Of a stretch of DNA of 5,878 nucleotides, positions 1-5,878 are shown piece by piece. The notes beneath the pieces are model-generated. The model was not told where the DNA came from. It was given only the letters and a program-made list of their open reading frames with translations, and did no database searches. Every line of letters starts with the position of its first letter. Within the stretch, counting starts at the first letter, position 1. Origin of the DNA: a virus (taxonomy: Duplodnaviria > Heunggongvirae > Uroviricota > Caudoviricetes); the IMG/VR virus record IMGVR_UViG_2681813274_000006; one strand, given 5' to 3'. A program made the translations under genes and the position numbers.

Positions 1-570
1 AAACACTATCAATAAGTTGGAGTCATTACCCGATATCCTGCTGAGAACATAAACACCCACGGATCGAGGCGTACGCTATCATGTTGCTACCACACTGACA
101 TGTTTTAAAAAATGCAATAAGACATTGTATCTGANNNNNNNNNNNNNNNNNNNNNNNNNNNNNNNNNNNNNNNNNNNNNNNNNNNNNNNNNNNNNNNNNN
201 NNNNNNNNNNNNNNNNNNNNNNNNNNNNNNNNNNNNNNNNNNNNNNNNNNNNNNNNNNNNNNNNNNNNNNNNNNNNNNNNNNNNNNNNNNNNNNNNNNNN
301 NNNNNNNNNNNNNNNNNNNNNNNNNNNNNNNNNNNNNNNNNNNNNNNNNNNNNNNNNNNNNNNNNNNNNNNNNNNNNNNNNNNNNNNNNNNNNNNNNNNN
401 NNNNNNNNNNNNNNNNNNNNNNNNNNNNNNNNNNNNNNNNNNNNNNNNNNNNNNNNNNNNNNNNNNNNNNNNNNNNNNNNNNNNNNNNNNNNNNNNNNNN
501 NNNNNNNNNNNNNNNNNNNNNNNNNNNNNGCCGGGTTTTGTGATGACCGGTTACGCCAACCCTGTACGTC

Positions 571-620
571 TCACCACCTCCCTGATTGGCGTCAGAGGTG
601 GTGATCATCCAATTAATTGG
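571..620 (+). promoter_or_regulatory. Inverted repeat plus palindrome immediately upstream of the rha start codon; possible operator or structured element
   Basis: Perfect 10-bp inverted repeat TCACCACCTC (571-580) / GAGGTGGTGA (595-604) with a 14-nt spacer, followed by the perfect 12-bp palindrome CCAATTAATTGG (609-620) and GGAG at 619-622, about 10 nt before the ATG at 632. It may instead lie inside the 3' end of a masked upstream gene. Confidence 0.25.
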
Positions 621-631
621 AGTCATCACAT

Positions 632-1189
632 ATGAATACAGCTATAACTTTTTCTAACGAGTCACCAAAAGTCTTTTTCAAAGATGGTCGCCTGGTTACC
701 ACCTCTCAAGCTGTTGCCGACTACTTCGATAAACAACATAAACACGTTTTAGCTAAGATTGACACACTCGACTGCTCTCCCGAATTTACATCAGCCAACT
801 TTTCGGCCGATGTTCAGACTGTCGAAATTGGCAACGGCGCAGAACGTGAATCACGATGCTACCTGATCACAAAAGACGGCTTCATGTTCCTCGTAATGGG
901 ATTTACTGGCAAAAAAGCAGCCAGACTAAAAGAAGCTTACATTGAAAAATTTAACGCAATGGAAGAAGAACTCCACAAACGTCCTCCTGCAGCACAAAAC
1001 TCCCCCGCCCCAAATAATGGATGCGCATTACTGATCCACTTCGATAAACACGGTCAGGTCGAGTTCACAGAAAAAGTCCCCGCCGATGCGATGGTATGCA
1101 CTCTGGAACGGTTTAAATTTTATCTGGAGCAACATGGGTGGATCGTTGCCCGTAAAGAACAATTGGTGGAAAGGTTGATGCGGTTTTAA
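632..1189 (+). CDS. Rha-family phage regulatory protein: N-terminal Rha-like domain (about 110 aa) plus an uncharacterised C-terminal region (about 70 aa)
   Basis: Open frame of 186 codons from ATG 632 (the ORF track starts at TTG 617; ATG 632 with GGAG upstream is the more likely start). The N-terminal part (TTSQAVADYFDKQHKHVLAKIDTL ... CYLITKDGFMFLVMGFTGKKAARLKEAYIEKF) matches the pattern I recall for the phage Rha regulatory domain. Stop TAA at 1187-1189. Confidence 0.75.
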   Translation: MNTAITFSNESPKVFFKDGRLVTTSQAVADYFDKQHKHVLAKIDTLDCSPEFTSANFSADVQTVEIGNGAERESRCYLITKDGFMFLVMGFTGKKAARLKEAYIEKFNAMEEELHKRPPAAQNSPAPNNGCALLIHFDKHGQVEFTEKVPADAMVCTLERFKFYLEQHGWIVARKEQLVERLMRF

Positions 1190-1600: not shown

Positions 1601-1962
1601 TTACTCCCTGACAGGATTTGCAGGCCACTCAATATCAGGTGCAGTTGATGTATCAACACGATTCAACAATACCCGATATTTATTCCATGCCTCCAGCAAC
1701 GATCTTTCTTCCTCCGTTGCGATTTCCAGATCTACAGCATCCTGCAGTGGCGCAATATACTCACTAAATTCCTGGATGTAGAACTGTGTGGTGACGGTCT
1801 TCCAGCCATTCGGCTNNNNNNNNNNNNNNNNNNNNNNNNNNNNNNNNNNNNNNNNNNNNNNNNNNNNNNNNNNNNNNNNNNNNNNNNNCTCACTAAATTC
1901 CTGGATGTAGAACTGTGTGGTGACGGTCTTCCAGCCATTCGGCTCCTGCTGTATCGAAGCAT
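1601..1962 (-). pseudogene. Tail fibre assembly protein (lambda Tfa-like), 3' fragment only
   Basis: Minus-strand translation gives ...[70 protein letters not shown], matching the C-terminus I recall for lambda Tfa ([24 protein letters not shown]). The frame is closed upstream by TAG (complement of 1963-1965) with no N-terminal Tfa region. The track ORF 1732-1962 (-) is in a different frame and does not give this product. The region spans the masked 1816-1888 gap. Confidence 0.7.
1760..1944. repeat. Tandem direct duplication inside the tfa fragment: 56 bp identical at 1760-1815 and 1889-1944, 129-bp period
   Basis: Exact 56/56 identity on either side of the 73-nt N block. 129 bp is 43 codons, so the duplication is in-frame if the masked length is real. 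Confidence 0.6.
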
Positions 1963-2055: not shown

Positions 2056-2724
2056 ATGGTGAAATTAATGAAAAAAAACACAGATGATGGGGCTAAAATT
2101 TACACACCACTTACCCTAAAGCTTTATGACTGGTGGGTTTTGGGAGTATCAAATCGGCTTGCATGGGGATGTCCTACAAAGGAACACCTTCTTCCACACT
2201 TTCTGGAACATTTAGGTAACAACCATCTGGATATTGGTGTTGGAACTGGGTTTTACCTTACTCACGTACCTGAGAGTAGTCTGATATCTTTAATGGATTT
2301 GAACGAAGCTAGCCTGAACGCGGCATCTACAAGGGCTGGGGAATCAAAAATTAAACATAAAATTAGCCATGATGTTTTTGAACCTTATCCCGCGGCGTTA
2401 CATGGTCAATTTGATTCCATTTCCATGTTTTACCTTCTTCACTGCCTGCCTGGAAATATATCTACAAAAAGCTGTGTAATACGCAATGCGGCGCAGGCCT
2501 TAACTGACGATGGAACTCTATACGGAGCCACAATTCTTGGCGATGGAGTTGTGCACAATAGCTTCGGTCAAAAACTGATGCGCATTTACAATCAGAAAGG
2601 CATCTTTTCAAACACAAAAGATTCCGAAGAAGGCTTAACACATATACTCTCAGAGCATTTCGAGAATGTTAAAACCAGGGTTCAAGGTACTGTAGTAATG
2701 TTTTCCGCTTCAGGGAAAAAATAG
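2056..2724 (+). CDS. Class I SAM-dependent methyltransferase (orphan; small-molecule or protein type rather than DNA type)
   Basis: 222-codon ORF with glycine-rich SAM-binding motif I (LDIGVGTGFY), an acidic residue at the end of the following strand (LMDLNE), and a motif II/III-like FDSISMFYLLHCLP. No DPPY/NPPY or PCQ DNA-methyltransferase motifs. Markedly more AT-rich than its flanks. From memory it resembles the prophage methyltransferases ybcY/ymfD of E. coli; not verified. Confidence 0.8.
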   Translation: MVKLMKKNTDDGAKIYTPLTLKLYDWWVLGVSNRLAWGCPTKEHLLPHFLEHLGNNHLDIGVGTGFYLTHVPESSLISLMDLNEASLNAASTRAGESKIKHKISHDVFEPYPAALHGQFDSISMFYLLHCLPGNISTKSCVIRNAAQALTDDGTLYGATILGDGVVHNSFGQKLMRIYNQKGIFSNTKDSEEGLTHILSEHFENVKTRVQGTVVMFSASGKK

Positions 2725-2731
2725 CATCCAA

Positions 2732-2769
2732 CCGCAGCACGTTCTTGCTTAAGACGTGCTACGGTTTCC
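2732..2769 (+). terminator. Candidate intrinsic terminator 8 nt after the methyltransferase stop
   Basis: CCGCAGCACGT (2732-2742) / ACGTGCTACGG (2754-2764) forms an 11-bp stem with one mismatch and an 11-nt loop, followed by TTTCCTTT. The left arm is identical to that of the hairpin at 1553. Confidence 0.45.
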
Positions 2770-3027
2770 TTTACGATTTGGGGTTGCGACTTTACCTCTA
2801 TTGATAATGCATTCCGGCAGAACGTTCAAATATGAACGTACGATATTTAACTAACCGAAAAACAAAATATAGCACAGGCGAGACATTTACCATCTAAGAA
2901 AATAGTATCGTTTTTTTACAGTTAAATCAACATCTCTTCCTTAAAATGAAAACAATAAATTTCAATCCTGAAACATTTTATTTCAGCTTATNNNNNNNNN
3001 NNACGTGCTGCGGCATAATCCCAATGA

Positions 3028-3138
3028 TTACTCCCTGACAGGGTTCGTAGGCCACTCAATATCAGGTGCAGTTGATGTATCAACACGGTTCAGCAACACC
3101 CGATACTTTTTCTAGGCTTCCACCACCAGCACGACAAG
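3028..3138 (-). pseudogene. Second copy of the lambda-type tfa 3' end (about 27-35 codons), fused to the pin remnant
   Basis: Minus-strand translation of 3111-3028 gives [27 protein letters not shown]. It is about 90% identical at nucleotide level to 1575-1685 and is preceded by an in-frame TAG (3114-3112) where the other copy has TGG (Trp). Confidence 0.7.
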
Positions 3139-3354
3139 ATGCCGCATACAGTGCCCCAGTCAGTCCAGTTTTCAGACAACCAGTGCGTCACCTTTTTGAA
3201 GGCGCTTTAAAGCACGTTTTAATCCAGGTCGGCCTGTCCTTGTTCCGCTTAATTTATCTTCAAATATTTGTTCATATCCTGCACAAACAAGAGCGTTTCG
3301 TTGCAGGTCTGTATTCTGGTCATTTGTTGATACCCTTACATAGCCAATCAGCAC
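3139..3354 (-). pseudogene. pin: Pin/Gin/Hin-family serine DNA invertase, N-terminal remnant with in-frame stop codons
   Basis: From GTG 3354: (M)LIGYVRVSTNDQNTDLQRNALVCAGYEQIFEDKLSGTRTGRPGLKRALKRLQKGDALVV, then TGA (3174-3172) where Pin proteins have Trp, then KLD, a second TGA (3162-3160), then LGHCMRH. The catalytic-serine motif YVRVSTxxQ is intact. The remnant stops after about 70 codons instead of the roughly 185-190 aa of intact family members. Confidence 0.85.
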
Positions 3355-3408
3355 GCTGAATCTCCCGTCCAAAAGCACAAATCATGCCATGCAGGCCAGA
3401 AACCGCCA

Positions 3409-3434
3409 TTATCTAAAACCTCGGTTTACGAGAA
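3409..3434. other. gix/pix-type inversion crossover site
   Basis: TTATCTAAAACCTCGGTTTACGAGAA: 26 bp made of two imperfectly inverted 12-bp half-sites around a central dinucleotide. It closely matches the Gin/Hin/Pin crossover consensus as I recall it (TTATCCAAAACCTCGGTTTACAGGAA). It lies between the invertase start and the tail-fibre variable cassette, as in Mu and e14. Confidence 0.6.
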
Positions 3435-4193
3435 CTCGGCACAAGCGGGGAGAAAATACCGTTACTCAGTACAGCGAATACCTGGACTAATCGACAAACA
3501 TTCAGCGGTGGCCTTTCTGGTGAACTATCCGGCAATGCTTCTACAGCTGCAAAATTAAAAACTGCCAGGAAAATAAGCAATGTGGCTTTTGATGGTTCCT
3601 CCGATATCACATTAAAAGCAAGTCATGTTGGTGCGTTTGCCTTAGGGAAAACAGGAAGCACCGTTGCGAATGATAAAGCAGTTGGATGGAACTGGAGTAG
3701 CGGAGCCTATAACGCAACTATTAGTGGTGCATCAACGTTAATTATTCATTTTTATATGGGAGAAGGAAGTTGTCCTGCAGCTCAGTTTCGGATTAATTAT
3801 AAAAATGGCGGTATTTTTTATCGTTCAGCCCGTGATGGTTATGGTTTTGAAGCCGACTGGTCCGAATTTTACACCACCAGAAAACCTTCAGCAGGAGATG
3901 TTGGTGCACTGCCGTTATCTGGTGGTCAACTGAATGGTGCACTGGGTATCGGAACATCCAGTGCTCTTGGCGGTAATTCGATTGTATTGGGTGATAATGA
4001 CACGGGCTTTAAACAAAAAGGCGATGGTAATCTGGATGTTTATGCTAATAACGTCCATGTTATGCGCTTTGTCTCCGGAAGCATTCAAAGTAATAAAACC
4101 ATAAATATTACGGGACGTGTTAATCCCTCGGATTACGGTAACTTTGATTCCCGCTATGTGAGAGATGTCAGACTTGGCACACGAGTTGTTTAG
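3417..4193 (+). CDS. Tail-fibre C-terminal variable-domain cassette; promoterless, with the frame opening inside the crossover site
   Basis: The frame is open from the TAA inside the crossover site (3414-3416) to TAG 4191-4193 (259 codons). The track calls only the GTG at 3582. The product (...LLSTANTWTNRQTFSGGLSGELSGNASTAAKLKTARKISNVAFDGSSDITLKAS...) is Gly/Ser/Thr/Asn-rich like phage tail-fibre distal domains. There is no ATG or ribosome-binding site at the 5' end, consistent with expression only after inversion joins it to a constant region. Confidence 0.7.
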   Translation, partial: NLGLRELGTSGEKIPLLSTANTWTNRQTFSGGLSGELSGNASTAAKLKTARKISNVAFDGSSDITLKASHVGAFALGKTGSTVANDKAVGWNWSSGAYNATISGASTLIIHFYMGEGSCPAAQFRINYKNGGIFYRSARDGYGFEADWSEFYTTRKPSAGDVGALPLSGGQLNGALGIGTSSALGGNSIVLGDNDTGFKQKGDGNLDVYANNVHVMRFVSGSIQSNKTINITGRVNPSDYGNFDSRYVRDVRLGTRVV

Positions 4194-4196
4194 ACC

Positions 4197-4343
4197 ATGA
4201 AGAAAGGCGTGATGTATGAAAAATCAGGCCATGTAATCACGGGGCTTGGTATTATCGGTGAAGTCGATGGTGATGATCCGGCAGTATTCAGACCAATACA
4301 AAAGTTAATTAACGGAACATGGTATAACGTATCGCAGGTATAA
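4197..4343 (+). pseudogene. Detached tail-fibre C-terminal tip (48 codons), separated from the cassette by an in-frame TAG
   Basis: Same frame as 3417-4193, with only TAG plus one codon between them. Its product ...[39 protein letters not shown] aligns with the contiguous C-terminus of the minus-strand fibre ([39 protein letters not shown]). Confidence 0.5.
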
Positions 4344-4345
4344 TC

Positions 4346-4999
4346 ATGCAGCATTTAAAAAACATTGTCGCAGGTAATCCAAAAACCGTTGAACAATACC
4401 AGCTAACAAAGAATTTTGATGTTATCTGGTTATGGTCCGAAGATGGAAAAAATTGGCATGAGGAATTAAAANNNNNNNNNNNNNNNNNNNNNNNNNNNNN
4501 NNNNNNNNNNNNNNNNNNNNNNNNNNNNNNNNNNNNNNNNNNNNNNNNNNNNNNNNNNNNNNNNNNNNNNNNNNNNNNNNNNNNNNNNNNNNNNNNNNNN
4601 NNNNNNNNNNNNNNNNNNNNNNNNNNNNNNNNNNNNNNNNNNNNNNNNNNNNNNNNNNNNNNNNNNNNNNNNNNNNNNNNNNNNNNNNNNNNNNNNNNNN
4701 NNNNNNNNNNNNNNNNNNNNNNNNNNNNNNNNNNNNNNNNNNNNNNNNNNNNNNNNNNNNNNNNNNNNNNNNNNNNNNNNNNNNNNNNNNNNNNNNNNNN
4801 NNNNNNNNNNNNNNNNNNNNNNNNNNNNNNNNNNNNNNNNNNNNNNNNNNNNNNNNNNNNNNNNGACTCTCAGCTACAGCTGGGCATCATTTCCGATGAG
4901 AATAAACAAAAATTAACCGAGTGGATGCTCTATGCGCAGAAGGTTGAATCCACAGACACCTCCAGCCTGCCAGTAACGTTTCCCGAACAACCAGAATGA
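4346..4999 (+). CDS. Tail fibre assembly protein (Tfa); interior masked
   Basis: ATG 4346 lies 2 nt after the preceding stop. The N-terminus [23 protein letters not shown] is paralogous to the minus-strand tfa, and the C-terminus ...[28 protein letters not shown] is Tfa-like. 393 nt of the interior are N-masked, so length and frame continuity are assumed. Confidence 0.75.
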
Positions 5000-5001
5000 G
5001 A

Positions 5002-5032
5002 GAAGGCCCGCTATCGGGCCTTAATTTTTATT
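5002..5032. terminator. Hairpin between the convergent tfa genes; probable terminator
   Basis: GAAGGCCCG (5002-5010), loop CTAT, CGGGCCTT (5015-5022), followed by AATTTTTATT on the plus strand. The T-tract overlaps the stop of the minus-strand tfa (5028-5030). Confidence 0.5.
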
Positions 5033-5555
5033 CAGGCTTTTGTGGCCATTCAGGATTTGCCGTATCCACACGGCTGACCAGAACACTGTAGCGTTCCCAT
5101 GCTTCCAGTCGTGTGCGTTCCTCGTCTGTTGCCATATTCAGCCTGACAGCTCGTTCCAGCGGCTGGATGACTGATTCAGCTTCGGAAAGCAATGCGGCCT
5201 TTTGTGATTCGGCCTGTTGTTGCAGTTCCTGTTCTGTATATTCCCTCTTTACTACTTTACCATCCAGAAACATCCATTTTCCGTTATTGTCTGCGTGACG
5301 ATTTGCCGTAATATCAGGAACTTCAACTATGCTTAGCCCTTCAGGATTAATAGTTGAAACGTCTTTACTGACAGCAACGATGATGTTGTTCTCATCGTAA
5401 GCAATTTTTATGGTGTCTGGCTGAAAATTCTTTTGTTCCTCATACCAGTTTTTGCCATCTTCGCAAAAGAGCCATACCACGCCCGCTTTTTTAGTTAGCT
5501 GGTATTGTTCCGGTGTTTTCGGATTCCCGGCCTTAATATTTTTCAGGTGCATCAT
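5028..5555 (-). CDS. Tail fibre assembly protein (Tfa)
   Basis: ATG at 5555-5553, with GGGGAG about 9 nt upstream, starts 1 nt after the fibre stop. Product [23 protein letters not shown] ... [31 protein letters not shown] has a lambda Tfa-like C-terminal motif. The track ORF starts at an upstream TTG (5591), which I think is less likely. Confidence 0.85.
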
Positions 5556-5556
5556 C

Positions 5557-5878
5557 TTAAACACTCCCCACGTTGTACCATATTCCCCCAATCAATTTCT
5601 GAATTGGCCTTCTGGCAACAGTGTCGACAATATCATCCGCATTGCTGTTAATTGCGGCTGTTAAAACATAACCTGACGCATCGCCAAAGCCGTAGTCGCG
5701 CCATACGTTTTTATATTCAATGCTGCCAAGACGAATATCCCGAACGACATGATTATGCAGCCATGTGCTTAACCAGTTGTTTTCCCACACTGAACCATAA
5801 ATATCGCCACTAGACGCAACTTGCGCACCACTTCCCAGCGCAAATTGAGGTAGCCTGAGTTTAACGGACACTCCTTCC
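5557..5878 (-). CDS. Tail fibre protein, C-terminal part; 5' end lies beyond the window
   Basis: The frame is open to the window edge (the track M at 5871 is a GTG; codons continue upstream). The C-terminus ...[62 protein letters not shown] is homologous to the plus-strand cassette and tip, and is followed directly by tfa. Confidence 0.8.

What the first reader, a model, noticed from the sequence alone, without database searches (positions are those of the whole stretch)
3409..5878. Shufflon-like tail-fibre host-range switch: two variable cassettes and two tfa chaperone genes, convergent around a shared terminator
The two fibre C-terminal cassettes (3417-4193 + and 5557-end -) and two tfa genes (4346-4999 + and 5028-5555 -) face each other around a hairpin at 5002-5032. 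The tfa paralogues share an almost identical N-terminus (M-HLKNI-AGNPKT-EQYQLTK) but diverge afterwards, and the fibre cassettes share only their extreme C-terminal tip. That fits two receptor specificities, each with its cognate assembly chaperone. In this assembly the minus-strand cassette appears to be the one joined to the constant region.
Basis: partly seen in the sequence, partly recalled or inferred. Interest (0 to 1): 0.45.

Follow-up and report, generated by a model that had tools for sequence, protein, structure and literature searches.

The report
Dead Mu-type tail-fibre inversion switch
This is the decayed remnant of a well-known phage "flip-switch" that swaps the tip of a tail fibre to change host range. 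It sits in a Shigella sonnei-type prophage wreck and can no longer flip, so it is ordinary rather than new.

Summary
It is a close homologue of the phage Mu G segment, not a shufflon. TfaA is 85% identical to Mu U' and TfaB 82% to Mu U. The invertase remnant is 93% identical to Gin. The hairpin is identical to Mu's.

In this sequence the switch is broken in four ways:
- The adjacent invertase stops after 60 codons (3172-3354, minus strand).
- Only one 26-bp crossover site remains (3409-3434).
- Cassette A carries an in-frame TAG at 4191, where an E. coli relative has CAG.
- Cassette B keeps only its last 95 codons (5557-5845) and then abuts an IS600 end (5846-5878). It is therefore not joined to a constant region.

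Complete genomes that match the window at 100% (one named in a Shigella paper, FC1653) show phage lysis genes beyond the IS600, not a fibre gene. Close relatives still hold the intact locus in both orientations, with exact half-site exchange. Two E. coli isolates with identical flanks differ only by this inversion, although their own invertase is truncated. That implies inversion in trans, which is already published for PinQ/PinE. The tfaA ORF length of 217 aa is an artefact of an N run; the real gene is 177 aa. Verdict: already known, low interest.

The parts
3003..3125 (-). 3' fragment of a tfa gene, abutting the invertase remnant. Its translation reads ...[17 protein letters not shown] second copy, 90% identical, lies at 1581-1698.
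   Evidence: PGAP annotates the equivalent stretch in E. coli as 'tail fiber assembly protein, missing N-terminus'.
3172..3354 (-). Truncated Gin/Pin-family serine invertase gene. It has a GTG start, 60 codons, then TGA where Gin has TGG (Trp). Homology to gin ends near 3164.
   Evidence: PF00239 E 5e-15 and phrog_8275 'DNA invertase' E 2e-32. 93% aa identity to Mu Gin residues 1-60. 93% nt identity over 266 nt including the upstream region. The same 60-aa product is annotated in E. coli.
3409..3434 (+). The only remaining crossover site, of the gix/pix type: half-site TTATCTAAAACC, core TC, half-site GGTTTACGAGAA.
   Evidence: Unique in the window even with up to 6 mismatches allowed. Half-sites are exchanged exactly at this site between relatives of opposite orientation.
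3417..4343 (+). Cassette A, the silent variable fibre C-terminus (Mu S'-like). A stop precedes it at 3414-3416. It carries an in-frame TAG at 4191-4193, followed by the 48-aa tip ORF at 4197-4343.
   Evidence: E. coli locus L001 has CAG at that codon and reads through as a 934-aa fibre. PDB 8ju3 (Mu S/S') matches at E 9e-55. Promoter scan of 3000-5878: no sigma-70-like site anywhere in the region.
4346..4999 (+). tfaA, the chaperone for cassette A (Mu U'-like). Positions 4472-4864 are N; the real gene is 177 aa.
   Evidence: phrog_24494 and PF02413 hit the two readable ends. The full copy from L005, a near-identical relative (99.9% DNA identity to the window), is 85% identical to Mu U'.
5003..5032 (.). 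G+C-rich hairpin (8-bp stem) with a T run, lying between the convergent tfa genes.
   Evidence: The sequence is identical to the Mu U'/U intergenic hairpin.
5028..5555 (-). tfaB, the chaperone for cassette B (Mu U-like). It is an intact 175-aa gene.
   Evidence: PF02413 E 8e-37. PDB 5yvq_B (Mu U) matches at E 1e-93 over all 175 residues. 82% identical to Mu U.
5557..5845 (-). Cassette B remnant: only the last 95 codons plus the stop of a roughly 300-aa variable cassette.
   Evidence: phrog_454 E 1e-32. 99-99.7% identical to E. coli prophage and P1-like plasmid fibre tips, with every match ending at 5845. The full cassette was read from L005.
5846..5878 (-). Terminal 33 nt of an IS600 copy that truncates cassette B.
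   Evidence: The window end matches L004 7678-7710 at 100%, and that stretch is contiguous there with a full IS. The IS is annotated 'IS3-like element IS600 family transposase' at 99.6% identity.

Best explanation
The region is a fossil of a Mu G-segment / P1 C-segment / e14 P-segment type invertible tail-fibre module, carried by a lambdoid prophage remnant at the trp-ompW locus of a Shigella sonnei-type genome.

HOW THE INTACT ELEMENT WORKS
A constant fibre N-terminus (Stf-like, PF08400) reads across a 26-bp crossover site into one of two alternative C-terminal receptor-binding cassettes. The matching Tfa chaperone gene follows directly. A Gin/Pin-family serine invertase recombines the two inverted sites at their 2-bp core and flips the roughly 2.9-3.1 kb segment. 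The other cassette and its Tfa are then expressed instead.

WHAT HAS HAPPENED IN THIS WINDOW
- The invertase gene is cut to 60 codons.
- Cassette A, the silent copy next to the invertase remnant, has a nonsense codon 50 codons before its end.
- An IS600-associated rearrangement has removed the constant region, the second crossover site and about two thirds of cassette B.

With one site and no fibre 5' part, the segment can neither invert nor make a fibre. Only the two tfa genes remain intact.

WHAT IS SHOWN AND WHAT IS INFERRED
Shown: the homologies, the single site, the stop codon, the IS junction, and both orientations with half-site exchange in relatives. Inferred: loss of function and lack of expression.
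For: HOMOLOGY TO MU
- TfaA is 85% identical to Mu U', TfaB 82% to Mu U, and the invertase remnant 93% to Gin.
- 266 nt of gin 5' DNA plus the gix region are 93% identical.
- The hairpin is identical to Mu's.
- Gene order relative to the invertase is the same as in the annotated Mu record.
- The cassettes hit the solved Mu S/S' structures.

DECAY IN THE WINDOW
- Only one site is present.
- Cassette A has TAG where E. coli has CAG.
- The cassette B match ends at 5845, followed by the IS600 end.
- Seven complete-genome loci (L004, L006-L010, L012) match the window at 100% across the module and to its last base (99.3-99.5% over the methyltransferase block), apart from two side differences upstream listed under noticed in passing. 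L012 is named in a Shigella paper (FC1653). They hold one site in 16.5 kb, and holin, DUF1327 and other non-fibre genes lie beyond the IS.

THE INTACT MECHANISM, SEEN IN RELATIVES
- L005 has Sc-B...A-pin'. L011 (S. sonnei 830292) and L013 have Sc-A...B-pin'. All are 99.7-100% identical to the window, and the inner half-sites are swapped exactly at the core.
- E. coli strains 4/0 and 4/1-1 have 100% identical flanks (6310 + 3192 nt) and the 3.1-kb segment precisely inverted.
- In 5,426 E. coli genomes, the truncated invertase lies next to an A-type cassette start in 302 and next to a B-type start in 152.
Against: - The window itself ends 33 nt into IS600. What lies beyond is read from other genomes that are identical over the module, not from the source assembly.
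- The window contains N runs, a 56-nt duplication and a 238-nt piece absent from those genomes. It may therefore be a scaffold, and its source strain is not proven identical to them.
- No expression data exist. A 104-codon ORF that fuses the IS600 end to the cassette B tip is called as a gene in several genomes. It could be transcribed from the IS.
- The missing fibre half could survive elsewhere in the genome next to another IS600 copy. This was not searched.
Confidence: 0.9

Rival explanations
1. A live, self-contained host-range switch. The minus-strand cassette would be fused to a constant fibre region just beyond the window, and the locus would flip between two specificities.
For: - The module architecture is complete in outline, and the minus-strand frame is open to the window end.
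- The ancestral arrangement exists in relative L005.
Against: - The last 33 nt of the window are an IS600 end, not fibre sequence.
- There is a single crossover site.
- The invertase is 60 codons long.
- Cassette A has a TAG.
Confidence: 0.02
2. A shufflon proper: a multiple-inversion system of the R64 type, driven by a tyrosine recombinase (Rci) acting on several short repeats.
For: Only the general idea of alternative C-terminal cassettes. Some E. coli relatives have four tfa genes in one cluster (H40), which hints that multi-cassette versions exist.
Against: - The recombinase remnant belongs to the serine Resolvase/invertase family.
- The window has one 26-bp gix-type site, and relatives have two.
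- There are two cassettes only.
- The proteins are phage fibre and Tfa, not PilV.
Confidence: 0.01
3. A remnant retained for a host function. For example, the intact Tfa proteins, or the IS600-fused 104-codon fibre-tip ORF, might be expressed and mask a receptor against other phages, as reported for e14 StfE2. Alternatively, the orphan site might recombine with sites in other prophages under a trans-acting Pin.
For: - Both tfa genes are intact.
- The fusion ORF is called as a gene in several genomes.
- Trans-acting PinQ/PinR/PinE inversion of a cryptic fibre segment, with an anti-phage effect, is published (PMC12529663).
- Trans inversion is evident in E. coli 4/0 versus 4/1-1.
Against: - The promoter scan found no sigma-70-like site in 3000-5878.
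- The e14 effect needs inversion between two sites, and here one is gone.
- The region shows several independent inactivating lesions typical of neutral decay in IS-rich Shigella.
Confidence: 0.05
4. An assembly or scaffolding artefact: the convergent arrangement is created by joining unrelated contigs across N runs.
For: - The window has four N runs.
- A 56-nt duplication flanks one of them.
- N-run lengths differ from the true lengths.
- A 238-nt piece is absent from complete genomes.
Against: The same order and orientation of all module parts occurs at 100% identity in seven complete chromosome loci, and the homologous arrangement in Mu, P2-like and lambdoid prophages.
Confidence: 0.02

Closest known systems
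Phage Mu G segment (Sc / Sv-U / U'-S'v / gin)
   Same: - Same gene order relative to the invertase: gin, site, S'v-like cassette, U'-like tfa, hairpin, U-like tfa, Sv-side cassette.
- TfaA is 85% identical to U', TfaB 82% to U, and the invertase remnant 93% (aa) to Gin.
- The inter-tfa hairpin is identical, and the crossover site is of the gix type.
- Cassette A residues 71-165 align closely with the S' part of PDB 8ju3.
   Different: - The constant part in relatives is a lambdoid Stf-type fibre (PF08400, about 615 aa with a long Ala/Ser-rich repeat region), not Mu S.
- Cassette B and the tip of cassette A differ from Mu Sv and S'v. They are closer to P2-like and L-413C H tips.
- In this window the invertase, one site, the constant region and most of cassette B are lost.
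E. coli K-12 cryptic prophage e14 P segment (stfP-tfaP / tfaE-stfE / pinE)
   Same: - A cryptic-prophage copy of the same kind of switch, with convergent stf/tfa pairs next to a Pin invertase.
- It can be inverted by invertases encoded in other prophages (PMC12529663). This parallels the trans inversion inferred for the truncated-invertase loci.
   Different: - Only weak DNA similarity to the window: 75% over the invertase 5' part and none over the cassettes.
- e14 keeps an intact pinE and both sites, and still inverts. The window copy cannot.
Invertible H-fibre segments of P2-like prophages and P1-type plasmids (P1 C segment / cin)
   Same: The end of tfaA, the hairpin, tfaB and the cassette B tip (4865-5845) are 96-98% identical to such elements. 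In them the cassette is the silent copy next to an intact recombinase.
   Different: Those elements are complete, with a baseplate operon, two sites and a 199-aa invertase. Here the module sits in a lambdoid remnant and is truncated.
R64-type shufflon (Rci, sfx repeats, pilV)
   Same: Only the principle of swapping C-terminal ends of an adhesin by DNA inversion.
   Different: The recombinase class differs (tyrosine versus serine), as do the number and kind of sites and the protein family. No defining feature is met.

Membership tests
Gin/Cin/Pin (Din-family) invertible tail-fibre segment | Adjacent gene for a Gin/Pin-family serine invertase | tested here: not met
   Only a remnant is present: 60 codons, then TGA, with homology ending near 3164. 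It keeps the Ser-containing N-terminus (VLIGYVRVSTNDQ) but lacks most of the catalytic domain and the DNA-binding domain. Homology itself is clear at 93% to Gin.
Gin/Cin/Pin (Din-family) invertible tail-fibre segment | Two 26-bp crossover sites in inverted orientation bounding the segment | tested here: not met
   One site lies at 3409-3434. No second copy is found in the window with up to 6 mismatches, nor in 16.5 kb of the identical complete-genome loci. Two sites are present in relatives L001-L003, L005, L011, L013, L017 and L018.
Gin/Cin/Pin (Din-family) invertible tail-fibre segment | Constant fibre N-terminal part outside the segment, reading across a site into a cassette | tested here: not met
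   Cassette B is cut at 5845 by IS600. The left flank of that IS in L004 has no similarity to the fibre gene. The feature is met in relatives: 918-aa and 934-aa fibres.
Gin/Cin/Pin (Din-family) invertible tail-fibre segment | Two alternative C-terminal cassettes, each followed by its own tfa, in convergent orientation | tested here: met
   Cassette A has a nonsense codon and cassette B is partial.
Gin/Cin/Pin (Din-family) invertible tail-fibre segment | Both orientations occur, with exchange at the site core | tested here: met
   Met in close relatives, not in the window's own genome type. L005 versus L011/L013, and E. coli 4/1-1 versus 4/0: the outer half-sites stay fixed and the inner half-sites swap.
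Gin/Cin/Pin (Din-family) invertible tail-fibre segment | Fis-dependent recombinational enhancer inside the 5' part of the invertase gene (recalled from the Gin/Hin literature) | not tested
   The retained 183 nt are 97% identical to the Mu gin 5' end, so the enhancer is probably kept. No Fis-site analysis or assay was done.
R64-type shufflon | Rci tyrosine recombinase, multiple sfx repeats and pilV cassettes | tested here: not met
   The recombinase remnant is PF00239, a serine type. There is a single gix-type site. The proteins are phage fibre and Tfa.
Caudovirales tail fibre assembly protein (PF02413, Mu U / lambda Tfa) | Profile match above the curated cut-off, and a position directly after the fibre gene | tested here: met
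   TfaB scores 126.8 bits against a cut-off of 22.1. The TfaA C-terminal end scores 48.7 bits. TfaB matches PDB 5yvq_B full length at E 1e-93. Start codons lie 2-3 nt after the fibre stop codons.

The most novel reading that the evidence does not exclude
The remnant might not be inert. The intact Tfa pair, or the 104-codon ORF fusing the IS600 end to the cassette B tip (5557-5871, minus strand), could be expressed and interfere with adsorption of other phages, as e14 StfE2 does. More broadly, the homologous loci with a dead cis invertase may be kept in E. coli because other prophages' Pin enzymes flip them in trans within a single host lineage (strains 4/0 versus 4/1-1).
Probability: 0.05. Interest if true: 0.45.

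Novelty: already known. Interest (0 to 1): 0.12.

Why it matters
It matters little for new biology. The Mu G, P1 C and e14 P segments are textbook examples of programmed inversion, and this copy is a pseudogenised one in an IS-riddled prophage remnant.

Its use is practical:
- It shows how IS600 and IS1 break Shigella assemblies exactly at such modules.
- It warns that an ORF spanning an N run (tfaA) or running off a contig end (cassette B) can be misread as intact.
- Comparison with relatives gives a clean natural example of half-site exchange, and of inversion in trans at loci whose own invertase is dead. That fits recent work on PinQ/PinE cross-activity.

Tried and rejected
- An exact 39-mer from the window end found nothing in genome contigs. 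The species-representative set evidently lacks this IS600 junction.
- I first read the stretch downstream of the invertase stop (3003-3164) as a frameshifted continuation of pin. Translation and the PGAP annotation of relatives show it is a tfa 3' fragment joined by deletion.
- Homologous recombination between long inverted repeats was considered as the cause of the two orientations. L001 has about 770 nt of A-like sequence in both cassettes. I rejected it for L005/L011/L013 and 4/0 versus 4/1-1, because the exchange maps to the 26-bp site with precise half-site swapping.
- I asked whether the TAG in cassette A is a normal feature of phages, since phrog_17305 is a 48-aa family. The closest phage records (P2-like L-413C and others, 92% identity) annotate only an H-type fibre gene and a tfa gene under the match, with no separate 48-aa ORF, although I did not read the codon itself. 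The E. coli relative L001 has CAG there and reads through. I therefore treat the TAG as a lineage-specific nonsense mutation.
- Structure prediction and fold search were not run, because direct sequence hits to the solved Mu S/S'/U structures made them unnecessary.
- The promoter scan found no sigma-70-like site in 3000-5878.
Full report
WHAT IS IN THE WINDOW

The 5878-nt window has four N runs: 135-529, 1816-1888, 2992-3002 and 4472-4864. Its first 30 nt are the end of an IS1. This rests on three things: alignment to the IS1 copy in L004, the start of E. coli homology at position 31 in an ompW remnant, and the IS1 inverted repeat as I recall it.

Its last 33 nt (5846-5878) are the end of an IS600. 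All E. coli matches to the fibre tip stop at 5845. The window end aligns at 100% to L004, where a full IS follows. That IS is annotated as IS600 at 99.6% identity.

The window is therefore an inter-IS piece. Seven complete-chromosome loci (L004, L006-L010, L012) match it at 100% across the module (3003-4471 and 4865-5878) and most other readable pieces, and 99.3-99.5% over the methyltransferase block, in the same order. The exceptions are a 45-nt and a 238-nt difference upstream (see side observations). L012 is FC1653, deposited in a study of clinical Shigella strains. L011, a close relative, is Shigella sonnei 830292. The source is most likely S. sonnei; this is an inference.

CHECK OF THE OBSERVATION

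The layout is real.
- A 26-bp site, TTATCTAAAACC-TC-GGTTTACGAGAA, lies at 3409-3434. It is unique, with 0 matches expected by chance.
- A stop at 3414-3416 precedes an open fibre frame that starts at 3417.
- That frame hits tail-fibre families: phrog_454 at E 9e-79 and gp37_C.
- It is followed by tfaA at 4346-4999, a hairpin at 5003-5022 with a T run, the convergent tfaB at 5028-5555 (PF02413, E 8e-37), and a minus-strand fibre tip from 5557.
- The tfa 5' ends form a 125-nt inverted repeat that is 70% complementary.

Using the unmasked tfaA of L005, a near-identical relative, the two Tfa proteins are 55% identical overall. They are 69% identical over the first 120 residues and 26% over the last 57.

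Four corrections are needed.
1. Cassette A runs to 4343. The TAG at 4191-4193 is in frame, and the shared tip motif ([12 protein letters not shown], 13 of 17 identical) lies in the 48-aa ORF after it.
2. The 217-aa tfaA ORF is inflated by 393 N that stand for 273 nt. The gene is 177 aa.
3. Cassette B keeps only 95 codons (5557-5845).
4. Full-length cassettes also share a central 51-aa stretch at 59% identity.

WHAT IT IS

The region is a homologue of the phage Mu G segment.
- TfaA is 85% identical to Mu U' and TfaB 82% to Mu U.
- The 60-aa recombinase remnant (3172-3354, minus strand) is 93% identical to the Gin N-terminus.
- 266 nt spanning the site, the intergenic region and the gin 5' end are 93% identical to Mu.
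- The inter-tfa hairpin is identical to Mu's.
- Gene order relative to the invertase equals that in the annotated Mu record: gin, S'v, U', U, Sv, Sc.
- TfaB matches the solved Mu U chain (5yvq_B) at E 1e-93, and both cassettes match the solved Mu S/S' fibres 8ju3 and 5yvq.
- The cassette A tip plus tfaA is also 92% identical to the H/G genes of P2-like phages such as L-413C.
- The tfaB plus cassette B tip is 96-98% identical to silent cassettes of P2-like prophages and P1-type plasmids.

In relatives, the constant part is a lambdoid Stf-type fibre with a PF08400 N-terminal domain.

HOW THE INTACT ELEMENT WORKS, SHOWN BY RELATIVES

L005 has the constant region fused to cassette B (a 918-aa fibre), with cassette A silent next to the invertase remnant. 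L011 and L013 have the opposite arrangement. All are 99.7-100% identical to the window.

The sites behave as site-specific inversion at the 2-bp core predicts. The outer half-sites stay in place: TTATCTAAAACC by the invertase and TTATCGAATACC by the constant region. The inner half-sites travel with their cassettes: GGTTTACGAGAA with A and GGTTTACAGGAA with B.

The homologous locus in E. coli strains 4/1-1 (faeces) and 4/0 (UTI), both from Sweden, has 100% identical flanks (6310 and 3192 nt). Its 3.1-kb segment is exactly inverted with the same half-site swap, and the adjacent invertase is truncated to 60 codons in both strains.

Among 5,426 complete E. coli genomes, the truncated invertase lies next to an A-type cassette start in 302 and next to a B-type start in 152. 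Inversion therefore continues after loss of the cis invertase. This implies catalysis in trans by other Pin-family enzymes. That is an inference, but it agrees with published cross-activity of PinQ, PinR and PinE on the e14 P segment (PMC12529663).

STATE OF THE ELEMENT IN THIS WINDOW

- The invertase has TGA where Gin has Trp-61, and homology to gin ends about 10 nt later, where a tfa 3' fragment is joined.
- There is one crossover site only, even allowing 6 mismatches. The same holds over 16.5 kb in the identical complete genomes.
- Cassette A has TAG where E. coli L001 has CAG and reads through to a 934-aa fibre. The TAG is present in all S. sonnei-type loci, including L011, where A is the fused cassette.
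- Cassette B is cut by IS600. The DNA on the far side of that IS in L004 has no similarity to the fibre gene and encodes holin, DUF1327 and NanS-like genes. This points to an IS-associated deletion or rearrangement rather than a simple insertion.
- The promoter scan found no sigma-70-like site in 3000-5878.

I conclude that the switch is a fossil. It cannot invert, and it cannot make a fibre.

COMPARISON WITH KNOWN SYSTEMS

By homology and architecture it belongs with the Mu G, P1 C and e14 P invertible segments. As a functional unit, however, it fails three of that family's defining features here: an intact invertase, two sites and a constant region. It meets the cassette-plus-tfa architecture. 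Close relatives meet all the features that were tested; the Fis-dependent enhancer was not tested.

It is not a shufflon. The recombinase class, the site type and number, and the protein family all differ.

SIDE OBSERVATIONS

- 2765-2991 is the upstream region of an ipaH effector gene. It is 99.6% identical to nine E. coli genomes, including CFSAN029787; in CFSAN029787, the one inspected, ipaHe starts 49 nt later. In the window it is followed by 11 N. It is absent from all ten complete-genome loci.
- A 56-nt exact duplication flanks the 73-N run.
- N-run lengths do not equal the true lengths.
- 45 nt present in L004 are missing after position 88.

These features suggest that the window is a scaffold or a masked record. 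They do not affect the module, whose order is confirmed in complete genomes.

VERDICT

But the element is a well-known type, it is mis-labelled as shufflon-like, and in this genome it is dead. Novelty: already known. Interest: low.

Noticed in passing
window 1-30 and 5846-5878: The window starts inside the terminal inverted repeat of an IS1 and ends inside the terminal 33 nt of an IS600. It is an inter-IS fragment of the kind produced by short-read assemblies of Shigella.
   Followed up: yes
window 2765-3002: 227 nt of ipaH-upstream sequence followed by 11 N. It is 99.6% identical to nine E. coli genomes, including CFSAN029787; in that one, the only one inspected, an ipaHe effector gene starts 49 nt later. 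The piece is flanked by an 11-nt direct repeat. It is absent from all ten complete-genome loci that otherwise match at 99.9-100%. It is either a scaffold join at a multicopy gene or a strain-specific ipaH insertion.
   Followed up: partly
window 1760-1815 and 1889-1944: An exact 56-nt duplication on either side of the 73-N run. The sequence is single-copy in complete genomes, so this looks like an unmerged contig overlap.
   Followed up: partly
window 4472-4864 and 135-529: N runs do not keep the true length. 393 N stand for 273 nt in tfaA, and 395 N stand for about 324 nt. ORF lengths across them are therefore unreliable. The tfaA frame is preserved only because the excess is 120 nt.
   Followed up: yes
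window 2056-2724, with 1581-1698 and 3008-3125: A class I SAM-dependent methyltransferase gene (phrog_2132, E 2e-156) is bracketed by two tfa 3' fragments that are 90% identical. The same block is 99% conserved at the same locus in the E. coli relatives inspected (L001, L002, L017, L018). Its function is unknown; it looks like a moron inserted downstream of a fibre module.
   Followed up: no
L017 (E. coli 4/1-1) and L018 (E. coli 4/0), positions 6284-9402: Two Swedish isolates with 100% identical flanks differ by a precise inversion of the homologous 3.1-kb fibre segment, although the adjacent invertase is truncated to 60 codons in both. This is evidence for inversion in trans on a short time scale.
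   Followed up: partly
window 5557-5871 (minus strand): A 104-codon ORF with a GTG start inside the IS600 end is fused to the last 95 codons of cassette B. It is called as a gene in several complete genomes (L006-L008, L010). Expression is unknown.
   Followed up: no
window 88/89: 45 nt present in L004 inside the ompW remnant are missing from the window.
   Followed up: no
H40, E. coli O25b:H4-ST131 strain 4993 (NZ_CP103557.1, 3401905-3405233): A related locus is annotated with four tfa genes and two or more fibre cassettes next to a recombinase. It may be a multi-cassette version, similar to the p15B Min system. It was not examined.
   Followed up: no
window 617-1189 and the masked stretch before it: A Rha-family regulator (PF09669, E 4e-27) lies here. 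In complete genomes an Ash-family gene precedes it, and that gene falls largely under the first N run. Both are ordinary prophage early genes.
   Followed up: no
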